Part shown: piece after piece, positions 1-60,460 of the stretch | Layout: every line of letters begins with the position of its first letter | How positions within the stretch are numbered: position 1 is the first letter of the stretch | From: Chrysomallon squamiferum | Taxonomy: Eukaryota; Animalia; Mollusca | DNA length: 64,000 nt | Assembly (NCBI GenBank): GCA_012295275.1 | Contig: CM022677.1 | Coordinates: 4,464,001 to 4,528,000, forward strand | Reading direction: 5' to 3' | The notes under the pieces: model-generated | Databases searched by the model: none | The model's input: the letters and a program-made list of their open reading frames with translations, nothing else | Told to the model about the DNA's origin: nothing | Position numbers and translations under genes: made by a program

Positions 1-3000
1 CCATCAGACAGTCAGTCTCATATCTCTGTCAATCATCTTTCCATTTCTTCAAATGGTTGCTCTCAAGTTAACTTCTAATATTGTCTATGAAAACAACATT
101 AAGCTGGAACCTGCTTGTTGTCTGTCTGTAAATATCATTGCTCCACATATTTTCATTTCCTCTATAATTTGTAATGTAGAAACACACAAAGCTTTTGCAC
201 TGTCATTAGTCTTGACAGTAGAAGTTTTTTGTTCCCTTCAATAATAACCAAGAATCATCCACTGTTAACTATTGGAGAATAATCAATCCACACTAATGTG
301 TATTGACAACATTTTCTCTGGAAACTGCTTTGGAAAGAAAAATCCACCTTTTGTGAATAATAATAATTGTTCCATATCAGTAAATACCTCATCTGTTTAA
401 ATTCTTCTCCCTCTTCTTGTAACTGAAGCTGATTCCAGAATCTTGTCTTTCCTGTAGATACAACAATAAAATGTAATAGAATAATAAGTATTTTTGATTG
501 TGTTTAATTGTCTGTAATGTTAGAAAGAAATTATTAAATATAAACATCATCTGTCTCTTATTGTAATAGATTTTAACAATAAATCACAAATAATTTAATC
601 AAAAAATATATATCTATAAAAAAGTATCACTACAAATTTTACATTATGGTCAATTTAAAAAAAACAATTGTCTTTTATAACCGAATTCATAAAAATATGT
701 GAAAGTATTTCATTATGAAAGATTTTCTAATATTAAACAAGAAGAATGCACTGATTAGATCAAAATATTTTAAAGTTAAGCAATACAAACATAACATGAA
801 AATGTAATAATAATAATAATACAAATACCACTAATATTTCTTAAAGCTGAAATCTATAAAATTGTGAATTCTCCTCTGAATCTTCAGCACTGACCTGCCT
901 TGCACTGTAAGGGAGAGAAAGAGATCTGAAAACCTCTGTCGTTGTACAAGTGTTTAAAAGAAATACAAAATTTGACATGGACTTGACAGTTTCCACCTGT
1001 AAATTGAAAAGAATTCATTATCACCAGCCTATAAAAATGACAGGCATTTTAGTTAAATAACTATTTGATAAGTTCTGTCATTTATTAATTTACTAACAGA
1101 TACCAAAGCTTTTCAGTTCTGTGTCACTCTCCACCAGGTATGTGAATTCAGTCACTTTGATTACAAGCTGCATTACTTTTTTGGAACACTTAGAACTGAT
1201 TCTATACATCTAATTTTAGATTTGATTAAAAATATATAAGTTAATAATCTGCCTACAACATTCAATTTATCCACAATAATAATCTTTTAATCCCAAAAGA
1301 TCAAGAGAATTCCAATTAATTACAAATATTTAACATTTTAAAATGTGATGATATAATTAATTCAAACCACAAAAAAGTCCTTTATACCTACAGATCTTTT
1401 TGTTATCTTTAAGAAAAAATATATATATTTTTTATAACATTAAATGACAGCTGAATAAATTCATAAAAAATAAACATTATCTGTGAATATCATTCAGTTC
1501 ATCAGCTAGTTTATGTATATTATTCTAACACAAAACTGCAGTGACTAAAATGTTGAAGTGTTATCTTGATCTGAACTGAACTTTTATCACCTACAAATCT
1601 ATGTTTATTAAAGTTAACAGATTTGAATCCTGAATGAGGAAGTGATCCAGCTGATAAAAAACAAAACAATAAATGAACGAAATAATGCAGACACTGCAAG
1701 AGTAACACAGAAACTAATCAACTCTGTGTCATCTGATATATAAAGTTTTCACTGGTAGGAAACAGAGTTGTAAGGATTTACATCTGCTTCTTCCTGAACA
1801 ATGGCAGTTTATAGCATAATTACCACCAACTTGATCACTATGCATTTCGAAGGTACATTTTTAATGAATATCAAGGAATTTTTATAAAACAGAATCAAGA
1901 AATGAAGTACTGGTTTTGACATAAGTATAAAATGTACTGATCTGTCTTCTATCTGAGTTACCTGAAAGGTCTTCCAAGCTGGTCAACAAAATCCTCTGAA
2001 ATGCTGAATCAAAGTTTGTGCTGGTGGTATGATAGCTATATTTAAACAACTATCCTGTTTCATGTATGAGTCACTGTTTCTTACTATTTGTTCAAGGTCA
2101 GGACATTTTGTGAATTTTGTACATTCCCCATTTTTTAGCCAGATTTATCTAAATAAATAAATATAGAAAGAAAAATTAATAAAATAAAATAAAAATAAAT
2201 AATAAATAAAAAGTAAGCATCAAATTTATCATTCTAAATCTTAACGTACATTATTTAAATGACTATTTTTTTACCTATTCCAGGCTAGGAGCATATGATT
2301 AATTTATTTGGGAAGAAATATCTCAGTCATGGAAAATTATTATAAATTATCAATGAATTATACTTAAACACTGTTTTAATACTGACTTTATTTATCTGGA
2401 TATAGTGGTAACATTCAAGAAGCAGCAAAAATAACGTTAAAAAGGACTAAATCCTTTGCCACTGGCCATTACAAGCCCTGCATTCATACGTACATATGTA
2501 CTTAAACACATTACTATTATTAATTATTATAAAACATAATGATACCACTTACTTTAGAACAGTTCTCTGTTTTATTGATTTCCTCTGTCTAGTATCAGTA
2601 TCAGATGAATTTGTCATCTTCAGGTTTTTTTTCTCATTATCACCTGCAAAACAAAATTACTTATTTAGCAATTTTGGAAGTAAAGCTGGATTAGCCACAA
2701 TCAATAAACTCGAAATGGTTTCCAGCTTACAATTTGTTATATCTGTATTCACTGAGTACATTTCTCTCTTTTATTTCCTCTTTCATCTTGAACTTCTACA
2801 ATGATCTAGCAGACTGTTTTGGCAGGCATCCCAGCTATTATTATAATATATGATCCTAAAATTGTGACAGAATTATATCTCATATCAAAAAACAACAGCA
2901 CATTTATAAATAAAACTTAATGAAAGGCGTTTAATCCCAAATCAAAACTAATTACTTCTGCTAGTTAGATTCTTTAACAGAATGAAAGTCACATCTATAG

Positions 3001-58500: not shown

Positions 58501-60460
58501 TGATAAATGCAATTTTGTTTGCTTATTATCATTCAAGCAATATATCTCACACACTGTCACACACACACACATACACACACACACACACACACACACACAC
58601 ACACACATAAACTAATAAAAACATACCCTGCCACTGTTGAGAGGTTTCTGAAAACATTCTAACACAGGCCTGACACATCACTTGACACCAGACTGTTGAT
58701 TCATATCATCAATAGTCTCTTGTATCCATTCTCTGGAAAATGGCCTGGATTTTTGTGATGCTGAAGTAGGGGACAGGGACCTGGGTGCACTGGTCCCACT
58801 CTGAATCAGGTACAGGACTTGCCCGGTTACTTGAATGTGGTGAGACGTCACCTGCTGCTCAACTTCCTGACTGTTGTCTTTCCCACCGTCACACACAGTC
58901 ATCTACCAAGTTTTGTTTGCACAGCAGATGAAGTCTTTTTACCAGCATCAGCTTGTTTTCACAAAACTGCCCTTTTCTTCTTGTTCCTGTCCATGCTGAA
59001 TGTAAACTATCATATTATAGTATTCCAGCAGCACTTGCACTCTACAGAGTGGTTCTGGTCAATGATTGTGTAGCTGGATGAGAAATTTATAAAATGTTTC
59101 ACCCTCATCTGATTTTTCATAGAAACATTCTTTAAATTCATTTGGAATATTTTCTCCTTACACTTTCTGCAATATCAATGCCAATGATGATTTTAATTTG
59201 TCCTGGAAAACATCAAAAATAAATAAATATTAGTAATGATATGAATAATACTGATAAAGACCTTATACATTCATAGGTTTATACTGTATGAGTTCAACAT
59301 GTTGTAATACATATGGGTGTGATGAAGCAATTAATGTCAACCAGGTATATTATCTGTAAATAGTTTTGAAGTAAATAGTTTTGGATGTCGTAGTTTTAGT
59401 CATATTATCAGCACAAGACACCTATTTCAAAAAAGAATCATTTTAGTAGTGTTTTGTGAATTGAGACTGTACAGTGTATTAATATCTTTTGTGATTATGA
59501 TTACAAATTATGTGTGTGTGTGTGTGTGTGTGTTAAATATTATTATAACAAATAATTTTATTAATATTTTACAGTGTCTACATATGAAATAACCTGGTCA
59601 TGTTTTTCTTAAATTTTTATTCATCTTTATAAGTTTTTAACGTTAACTTTAAGCTATACAGATATTTAGCTTTAATAATATGAAAGAATTTAGGGCCCCA
59701 CCCATTATAAACTTTAATATGGTTAAAAAAATAATTTAAATATGTTTAATAATGGATAAAGCAAGTCAGCAATTTAATTAAATTTAAAAAAAAAAATTGG
59801 AAATAAACTGACAGAAAACAACCTACCAAACAAAATCAGAATATTTTCTTATAATAGTTTTATCTGTATATTAAAAAAAAAAAATTTAAAAGTAAATAAA
59901 TAAATGAAATAATAATAATAATAATAATAATAATAATAATAATAATAATAATAATAAATAAATAAAAAATAAATAAATAAATAATAATTGTGAGTTGACA
60001 CATGTGTGGTGTTTACTTTGGTGGTGCTACACATGTCAATTTCTTTTAAAACAAATTTAATTACTGGCCACACAAAATTAAGACTAAACATTTCTTGTTT
60101 ATGCTGTTCACATTAGTACAAACACTGGTGAATTTTGTTATTAATCGAGTAATAAACAAATAATAAAAAATAATAATAAAATAAATAATAAATAAATAAA
60201 TATTTTTCCTTAATAAAAAACAATAATAATAATAAAATAAATAAATAAATAAATAAATATTATTCCGGAATAAGATGGCTGCCATCAGGTGGCTGTGACG
60301 TTTAAATTATACTTAAATCAAATAAAAAAAATCCAAACTCATTAACAACTACAATAATAAATAGTACTACCTGTCTGCTTCACAAAGTGAAATACTTTAA
60401 GCAACTTTCTTGTTGCACGATAATGCAATTACACCAATTCTGTAGAAGATTCTTCTAACG
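55564..60460 (-). pseudogene. CAMSAP1: CAMSAP/Patronin N-terminal part: exons 59103-59202, 58627-58732, 58298-58378; further exon-like blocks 56697-56846 and 55564-55671; possible first exon ending near 60371
   Basis: KLKSSLALILQKV*GENIPNEFKECFYEKSDE, INSLVSSD..CQAC and LLSRKGIYVMEKDESAV match CAMSAP1 (NIPEDLRDPFY; LLSSELYC; ALSRKGIYVMESDDTPV). Confidence 0.8.

What the first reader, a model, noticed from the sequence alone, without database searches (positions are those of the whole stretch)
1..60460. Head-to-tail chain of co-oriented, intron-containing fragments of about 10 unrelated genes
Seen: every recognisable gene is a truncated, damaged DNA-level copy with introns kept, and one follows another every 1-7 kb. 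All fragments left of the gap are on the minus strand (unknown gene, MCC, EGF, FNDC3, module, EGFR, signal-peptide piece, GIMAP). Undoing one inferred inversion would put CAMSAP and the 52-kb piece on minus as well; only DHX8 is plus. Known: DHX8, CAMSAP and FNDC3 are conserved low-copy genes, so intact parents should exist elsewhere. Same-orientation capture of gene pieces is a hallmark of Helitrons, and fragment mosaics also typify B, Y/W and pericentromeric DNA. Inference: this is the cargo of a very large gene-capturing element, or a non-recombining compartment that collects and compacts gene copies. No transposase or Rep/Hel gene for such an element is visible here.
Basis: partly seen in the sequence, partly recalled or inferred. 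Interest (0 to 1): 0.8.

Follow-up and report, generated by a model that had tools for sequence, protein, structure and literature searches.

The report
Amplified chain of broken snail genes
In what is likely a snail, pieces of at least seven unrelated genes, introns kept and middles cut out, lie end to end over 64 kb, and the 13-kb part that was tested is repeated many times (likely tens) in the genome, so this is likely the cargo of an unusually large gene-collecting mobile element or duplication block rather than working genes.

Summary
The chain is real. Pieces of MCC, an EGF-repeat gene, an FN3/transmembrane gene (FNDC3-like), EGFR, GIMAP (weak), CAMSAP and DHX8 lie end to end with introns. 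Corrections: the 39-40 kb signal-peptide piece is EGFR exon 1; EGFR and CAMSAP each keep both gene ends and lack the middle; EGFR exons 1-5 are undamaged (predicted 247-aa frame); co-orientation is weak (sign test p 0.04-0.13). New: contigs of two animals from two studies show the tested 13 kb (46.6-59.8 kb) as a diverged multi-copy family, roughly 10-100 copies (inferred, no single-copy control), whose copies differ by deletions and strand switches; most DNA depth shares a CAMSAP frameshift that RNA lacks, so amplification followed decay. This excludes one decayed duplication or an assembly error. No transposase, Rep/Hel or Helitron end was found. Best reading: cargo of a giant non-autonomous capturing element (0.45), with a duplicon-swapping compartment nearly as likely (0.4). 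The scan noted similar amplified mosaics in two other genomes.

The parts
1..7475 (-). Exon-like pieces of an unidentified, decayed gene (largest 6876-7470, 6050-6290)
   Evidence: splice-like boundaries seen; no family or homologue
8517..11290 (-). MCC/USHBP1 pieces: exons about 11070-11290 (frameshift) and 9590-9790, plus a tandem array of the exon end and donor (8517-9596)
   Evidence: Pfam USHBP1_PDZ-bd E 9.8e-6; array; sequence
12270..17960 (-). EGF-repeat gene piece: six EGF exons (one frameshifted, one lacking a cysteine) and a Ser/Thr-rich exon with stops
24690..31240 (-). 3' part of an FN3-repeat membrane-anchored gene (FNDC3-like, name recalled) with stop, frameshifts and tandemly repeated exons
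31300..32733 (-). EGFR kinase exons (abalone residues 1034-1173), decayed, one in-frame stop, cut off 3' at the FN3 piece
33225..39545 (-). EGFR exons 1-5 (residues 1-238), intact frame, broken inside exon 5; residues about 239-1033 are missing
40068..40149 (-). Second EGFR exon 1 with promoter-like CpG-rich DNA; 114 of 138 identical to the first copy upstream, then 143 of 143 identical
40585..40749 (-). Module M, part of the 372-bp repeat unit (87-88% alike), upstream of EGFR exon 1; a shorter copy at 39650-39720 is fused to the other exon-1 copy
41980..42099 (-). Signal-peptide-like first exon with stops, gene unidentified
   Evidence: sequence, translation; no family
43568..44090 (-). GIMAP/AIG1-like piece, interrupted by a 21-bp array (44110-45132) that runs into the gap
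   Evidence: weak hits; array
45133..45332 (.). Assembly gap (200 N)
45333..46690 (+). 372-bp tandem repeat (3.1 units, 97%) and its degenerate end; the end has about ten times the depth of the gene pieces in run X1
   Evidence: table 4: depth 10795-13520 at 46620-46640
46881..50790 (+). CAMSAP 3' half with CKK exons, stop and frameshifts
52260..53066 (+). Two exon-like pieces of an unidentified gene
53620..54230 (.). Very high-copy MITE-like repeat (resemblance to HINE-type elements is recalled, not tested)
   Evidence: depth 48301 (X1) and 476181 (X3)
57420..60460 (-). CAMSAP 5' half (N-terminal helical and CH exons; first exon and promoter-like DNA inferred)
   Evidence: Pfam CAMSAP_CH E 2e-5, CH_CAMSAP2_N E 0.007; CpG-rich at 60-62 kb
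60889..60945 (.). Perfect 57-base palindrome where orientation switches from CAMSAP to DHX8
   Evidence: z -10, 0 of 200 shuffles
61637..63990 (+). DHX8 3' part, four exons, stops and frameshifts

Best explanation
This is one copy of a multi-copy family of non-working gene-fragment chains, likely the cargo of a very large non-autonomous mobile element (likely rolling-circle or Pack type) that picked up host DNA in steps and was then copied again and again. Shown: the pieces are DNA-level copies with introns; EGFR and CAMSAP keep both ends of the gene and lack the middle; the tested 13 kb exists as many diverged variants in two animals; variants differ by deletions of 40-1242 bases, some with filler letters, and by strand switches. 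Inferred: long stretches of genes, starting in their promoters, were copied by template switching or end read-through, shortened by internal deletion, joined head to tail and amplified after they had begun to decay; neighbouring copies recombine (two EGFR first exons, diverged upstream and identical downstream). Inferred and weakest: that a transposase or Rep/helicase supplied in trans does the moving, with the 372-bp repeat (module M) as part of the carrier. The intact parents likely lie elsewhere and supply the CAMSAP RNA.
For:: 4521 (X1) and 7495 (X3) contigs laid on 13.2 kb, spread over 80-100% identity (counts include the MITE); all 30 bins covered, median summed depth 1016 and 10674 outside the two MITE bins against 16-188 and 49-1423 for the 8 longest contigs shown of each run; up to 15 (X1) and 31 (X3) separate contigs carry one variant at a single site; one 191-base intronic contig with 1 difference has depth 1423. 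A one-base deletion in the last CAMSAP exon is absent from RNA (extra base in 193.7 of 203.5 depth) but present in most DNA depth (extra base in only 207.8 of 1208.9 and 3248 of 14141), and the extra base restores a short natural-looking C-terminus. Depth profiles of the two animals agree (rho 0.90) and scale like the MITE (ratio 9.7 vs 9.9). A joint of 46867 with 57109 (depth 555 in X3) is compatible with CAMSAP halves joined directly in other copies. Promoter/first-exon pieces occur four times (two EGFR, 42.1 kb, CAMSAP), the class that bat Helitrons capture most (PMC4224331, passages). Module M lies in gene orientation upstream of a gene piece at all 3 of its places. Stepwise capture and loss of internal sequence are described for maize Helitrons (PMC3288121, passages).
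Against: No terminus: 8 perfect GC-containing hairpins in the window, none followed by CTRR-T at a gene junction; the end of the 372-bp array folds no better than shuffles (22 of 200). No transposase or Rep/Hel piece. Known animal cargo is far smaller (bat Helitrons 123-5503 bp; Pack-TIR duplicates median 224 bp). Depth varies about 14-fold (X1) to 35-fold (X3) along the 13 kb, which suits modules with separate copy numbers as well as deletion derivatives. Co-orientation is weak. Copy number was tested only for 46.6-59.8 kb; for the left 45 kb the only sign is the pair of diverged EGFR first exons. Summed contig depth is not a copy number, no single-copy control was laid, and the kind of the 46867-57109 joint (skip or strand switch) was not among the rows shown.
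Confidence: 0.45

Rival explanations
1. A duplicon mosaic of a pericentromeric or subtelomeric compartment: whole-gene segmental duplications were seeded there by break repair, whittled down by deletions, and swapped among chromosomes or in tandem by ectopic recombination. No transposase is needed and co-orientation is chance.
For: Uneven depth along the stretch; satellite, minisatellite arrays and an assembly gap inside the chain; EGFR and CAMSAP pieces span both gene ends, as if whole genes were first copied; conversion-like identity between neighbouring EGFR first exons; a fold-back-like palindrome at the orientation switch; no element ends or enzyme. Human subtelomeres are such mosaics (PMC2323237, Background section).
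Confidence: 0.4
2. A B chromosome or non-recombining sex-linked region that has collected and amplified gene pieces.
For: B chromosomes carry gene fragments and pseudogenes from many A chromosomes (PMC6406668, passages); decay and repeats fit.
Against: Depth relative to the MITE is the same in two animals of two studies (0.021, 0.022); 7 of 7 listed non-RNA runs of the organism hold the stretch (the list favours holders and sex is not recorded); the scaffold runs on for at least 6.69 Mb.
Confidence: 0.1
3. One decayed segmental duplication, or an assembly artefact.
For: A gap and long simple repeats lie in the window; at some sites no laid contig shows the window's letter (table 3).
Against: Contigs of other animals match at 0-2 differences over 177-308 bases; share of sampled words up to 0.52; many diverged variants and shared lesion.
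Confidence: 0.05

Closest known systems
Gene-capturing Helitrons of maize (PMC3288121, passages) and bats (PMC4224331, passages)
   Same: Several intron-containing host gene pieces in one unit, stepwise assembly, loss of internal sequence, amplification to many copies, many promoter/first-exon pieces.
   Different: No TC/hairpin-CTRR ends or Rep/Hel found here; the chain is at least 64 kb against at most 5.5 kb in bats; two genes keep both ends and lose the middle.
Pack-TIR / Pack-MULE / Pack-CACTA elements (PMC8277862, passages; PMC5861414 and PMC6379663, search listing only)
   Same: Non-autonomous carriers of host DNA made by template switching and amplified by transposition.
   Different: No terminal inverted repeats or target duplication identified; animal Pack-TIR cargo has a median of 224 bp and is mostly single-copy; 'mollus' had 0 hits in that paper's main text.
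Human subtelomeric and pericentromeric duplicon mosaics (PMC2323237, outline and Background)
   Same: Patchwork of duplicated blocks from many loci, variable organisation between copies, exchange between copies.
   Different: Here copies reach down to 80% identity and genes are cut down by large internal deletions; chromosomal position untested; no telomere repeats in the window.
Oyster Cg_HINE Helentron-derived elements carrying satellite-like arrays (PMC7492417, passages)
   Same: A tandem array of a high-copy repeat embedded in dispersed DNA (the 372-bp array).
   Different: Subterminal inverted repeats and 3' palindrome were not established for the 372-bp element; gene cargo was not seen in the passages read.
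B chromosomes with gene fragments (PMC6406668, passages)
   Same: Amplified, decayed pieces of many unrelated genes.
   Different: Dose looks equal in the two animals tested and the scaffold is long.

Membership tests
Helitron | 3' hairpin of 16-20 bp about 10-12 bp before a CTRR end, 5' TC, insertion between A and T | tested here: not met
   Within the window no perfect hairpin is followed by CTRR-T; the 57-base palindrome has CTAG 7 bases on but is too long and is followed by A. The ends may lie outside the window.
Helitron | Rep/helicase gene in the element or an autonomous partner | tested here: inconclusive
   None in 241 open stretches of the window; partner elsewhere not searchable.
Helitron | Multiple captured intron-containing gene fragments, amplified | tested here: met
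   (amplification shown for 46.6-59.8 kb only)
Helitron | Empty paralogous or orthologous insertion sites | not testable with these tools
   no genome held
Helentron/HINE | Subterminal inverted repeats, 3' palindrome, insertion at TT, central tandem array | tested here: inconclusive
   372-bp array ends before a T-rich run but its end folds like shuffles and its left end is in the gap
Pack-TIR/Pack-MULE | Terminal inverted repeats with target-site duplication around the cargo | tested here: inconclusive
   The only non-simple inverted pair among the 25 longest is module M against the 372-bp unit; the M copies end at different points, so no fixed terminus
Subtelomeric/pericentromeric duplicon mosaic | Copies concentrated near telomeres or centromeres | not testable with these tools
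   no genome; no telomere-repeat array in the window
Subtelomeric/pericentromeric duplicon mosaic | Blocks from many loci with differing copy number and arrangement | tested here: met
   uneven depth and many alternative joints; parent loci themselves not located
B chromosome / sex-limited region | Presence or dose varies between individuals or sexes | tested here: not met
   equal relative depth in 2 of 2 animals compared; small sample, sex unknown
Processed (retro) pseudogenes | Introns removed, poly(A) tail | tested here: not met
   introns and splice sites kept; promoter-like DNA included

The most novel reading that the evidence does not exclude
A giant (over 60 kb) gene-collecting mobile element of a mollusc, present in tens of copies, that copies whole genes from the promoter on, loses their middles and strings the two ends together in one orientation; one passenger, an intact EGFR front end with two alternative first exons, is expressed as a secreted 247-residue decoy of the receptor.
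Probability: 0.2. Interest if true: 0.8.

Novelty: new variant of a known kind. Interest (0 to 1): 0.5.

Why it matters
Multi-gene capture and amplification on this scale is documented in plants and in primate duplication blocks; in animals the transposon-borne cargo in the papers read is a few hundred bases to 5.5 kb. My searches found no report of it in a gastropod. If the chain moves as a unit, it is a large exon-shuffling machine in a mollusc, and the undamaged EGFR front end is a candidate new gene. In practice, tens of decayed copies of CAMSAP and other conserved genes will confuse annotation, read mapping and variant calling in this species. If it is a duplicon compartment, it shows that the mosaic architecture known from primates recurs in a snail.

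Tried and rejected
No whole genome was held, so parents, synteny and flanks were not examined. JGI metagenome scan with a 20-base CAMSAP motif: 4 of 4 loci were chance matches. Viral contigs: module M 0 matches; unknown-gene peptide 0 confirmed of 59 candidates. Unknown gene at 1-7.5 kb: no homologue among 428 candidates; 2 hits in the representative search were repeat artefacts. 52-kb piece and the 42.6-kb plus-strand frame: no atlas or Pfam hit; if the 42.6-kb frame is a gene piece it would lower co-orientation further. CAMSAP homologue search found no candidate, so its exons were mapped by Pfam and PDB only. Rfam: 0 hits. A wrong-frame DHX8 query and a wrong-frame FN3 query gave nothing. 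Organism B (run X10, same study as one holder) shows median depth 10 and no correlation with organism A (rho 0.03), but its relatedness is unknown, so this does not date the family. CpG ratios differ by piece (0.0-1.0) but may be inherited from the parents. RNA/DNA depth is 6-18 times the MITE level in three bins with CAMSAP 3' exons; contigs cannot rank expression, so this is a hint only, and transcription of the copies is not shown. Earlier-finding look-ups near the window, by sequence and by words within this genome were empty. Reads could be laid on 46.6-59.8 kb only; the left 45 kb and DHX8 are untested for copy number. In the EGFR comparison I dropped 3 columns that are exon-boundary artefacts (raw counts 2 of 40 and 14 of 64; used 1 of 39 and 12 of 62).
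Full report
Setting. The window is AT-rich animal DNA (GC 0.21-0.45 per 2 kb, mostly under 0.30) with one 200-N gap at 45133-45332 and many simple and tandem repeats. No whole genome is held. The closest named relative of its EGFR exon is abalone EGFR, 62% identical, and earlier notes on this genome call it a snail (unchecked). 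One of those notes lies 6.69 Mb beyond the window's end, so the scaffold is long.

The fragments. Pfam, PDB and tblastn confirm, from left to right: MCC/USHBP1, EGF exons, FN3-type exons ending in a hydrophobic stretch and stop ('FNDC3' is recalled), EGFR, a weak GIMAP match, CAMSAP CKK on plus and CAMSAP CH on minus and DHX8 on plus. All but the GIMAP piece show exon-intron structure. Pieces at 1-7.5 kb, 42.1 kb and 52-53 kb could not be named. So 7 genes are identified, one weakly.

Shape of the copies. Against abalone EGFR the window holds residues 1-238, then jumps to 1034-1173. The 39-40 kb signal-peptide piece is EGFR exon 1, present twice. CAMSAP likewise keeps its N-terminal and CH exons and its CKK end; no Pfam or PDB match to the middle was found, though I had no full-length CAMSAP to map against. 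Both begin in CpG-rich, promoter-like DNA, so these are DNA-level copies, not retrocopies. Damage is uneven. The EGFR kinase exons change 12 of 62 residues that are invariant in 9 reference EGFRs and carry a stop, whereas exons 2-4 change 1 of 39 (Fisher p 0.015; three boundary artefacts removed, raw 14 of 64 and 2 of 40). Exons 1-5 splice in frame with either first exon and predict 247 residues: signal peptide, L1 domain, start of the cysteine-rich region, short new tail. That piece is either young or maintained; I cannot tell which. The two first exons are 114 of 138 identical upstream and then 143 of 143 identical, as expected from conversion or unequal exchange between two older family members.

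Orientation. The CAMSAP halves point in opposite directions, so a rearrangement is real. Sign tests give p 0.06 for the 5 identified genes left of the gap, 0.125 for 6 of 7 identified genes, and 0.04 for 8 of 9 with unnamed pieces and the inversion undone. This is a hint, not a result, and the gap leaves the relative orientation of the two sides open.

Copy number. Nine runs of one organism from 3 studies hold 55.2-64 kb (word share 0.11-0.52); two runs of a second organism hold 0.01. I laid 4 of the 11 runs on 46.6-59.8 kb. Two DNA runs from different studies give 4521 and 7495 contigs spread from 80 to 100% identity (including those of a MITE at 53.6-54.2 kb). Outside the two MITE bins, median summed depth is 1016 and 10674, while the 8 longest contigs shown per run have depths of 16-188 and 49-1423. 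Up to 15 and 31 distinct contigs carry one variant at one site. Taking single-locus depth as 16-55 (X1) or 50-360 (X3) and halving for contig overlap gives roughly 10-100 copies; this is an inference, the tool warns that summed depth is no copy number, and no single-copy control was laid. The two profiles agree (rho 0.90 over 28 bins) and scale like the MITE (9.7 vs 9.9), so the dose looks the same in both animals. Other copies show skips of 40-1242 bases, several with filler letters, and strand switches (15 joints shown, 243 more not shown). A joint of 46867 with 57109 (depth 555, X3) is compatible with the CAMSAP halves being joined directly in other copies, but its kind was not displayed. 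An extra base at 50750 is in 193.7 of 203.5 RNA depth but only 17% and 23% of DNA depth, and it restores a short C-terminus: most DNA copies share the frameshift, so amplification came after damage, and an intact expressed parent is likely. Contigs with 0-2 differences over 177-308 bases argue against assembly error.

Carrier. No transposase or Rep/Hel piece was found in 241 open stretches (tandem arrays were mostly left out). None of 8 perfect hairpins has a Helitron 3' end (definition from PMC3288121). A 372-bp repeat forms an array beside the gap and recurs as module M upstream of both EGFR first exons, always in gene orientation; its end is about ten times deeper than the gene pieces in X1, so it is a repeat family in its own right and a candidate carrier, unproven. 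A perfect 57-base palindrome sits where orientation flips between CAMSAP and DHX8, which suggests a fold-back repair event (inference).

Mechanism. Shown: DNA-level copies, internal deletions, multi-copy diverged family, structural variation, shared lesion. Inferred: stepwise capture by template switching or end read-through, shortening by deletion in later rounds, amplification in trans. I give a giant non-autonomous element 0.45 and a duplicon-swapping compartment 0.4; the statement common to both (an amplified family of decayed gene mosaics) I hold at about 0.85. A B or sex-linked compartment gets 0.1.

Known systems. Maize and bat Helitrons capture and amplify gene pieces, with a bias to promoters and first exons in bats, but bat elements are at most 5.5 kb (passages). 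Animal Pack-TIR cargo has a median of 224 bp (passages). Human subtelomeric duplicon patchworks match the architecture (Background section). Oyster HINEs carry satellite arrays (passages). B chromosomes hold gene fragments (passages). Searches for Helitron + gene fragments + gastropod (2 papers), snail genome + Helitron + captured + pseudogene (0) and mollusc + segmental duplications + gene fragments + transposon (4) showed no description of such a family; in PMC10294476 gene fragments were removed from the repeat libraries (passages). The library lacks most subscription papers and I read no supplements. The scan itself noted two similar mosaics in other genomes (unchecked).

Verdict. It is not filed as a Helitron, since the ends and the enzyme were not found. 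Interest 0.5; 0.8 if it proves to be one mobile unit or yields an expressed EGFR decoy.

Noticed in passing
window 33177-40149 (-): EGFR exons 1-5 form an intact predicted 247-aa frame with either of two first exons: a possible secreted truncated receptor.
   Followed up: partly
window 60889-60945: Perfect 57-base palindrome in otherwise diverged DNA, between the CAMSAP promoter region and the DHX8 piece.
   Followed up: partly
window 8517-9596, 25464-26125, 27621-28258, 36091-36323: Tandem arrays whose unit includes an exon end and its splice donor, in three different gene pieces (MCC, FN3 gene, EGFR).
   Followed up: no
window 42599-42877 (+): 92-codon open frame in CpG-rich DNA, head to head with the 42.1-kb first exon; no family or atlas hit.
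   Followed up: partly
window 34070-34142 and 35313-35385: 73-base exact duplicate about 1.2 kb apart inside EGFR introns, like a templated insertion.
   Followed up: no
window 53620-54230: MITE-like repeat with about 45 times the depth of the gene pieces in both animals.
   Followed up: partly
window 55560-55680 (+) and 56660-56850 (-): Two exon-like pieces that other copies join across strands (55600 with 56770, depth 897 in X3); other copies also carry extra letters at 56743. Gene unidentified.
   Followed up: no
window 40936-41311: 66-bp tandem array (5.7 units, 96%) directly upstream of module M.
   Followed up: no
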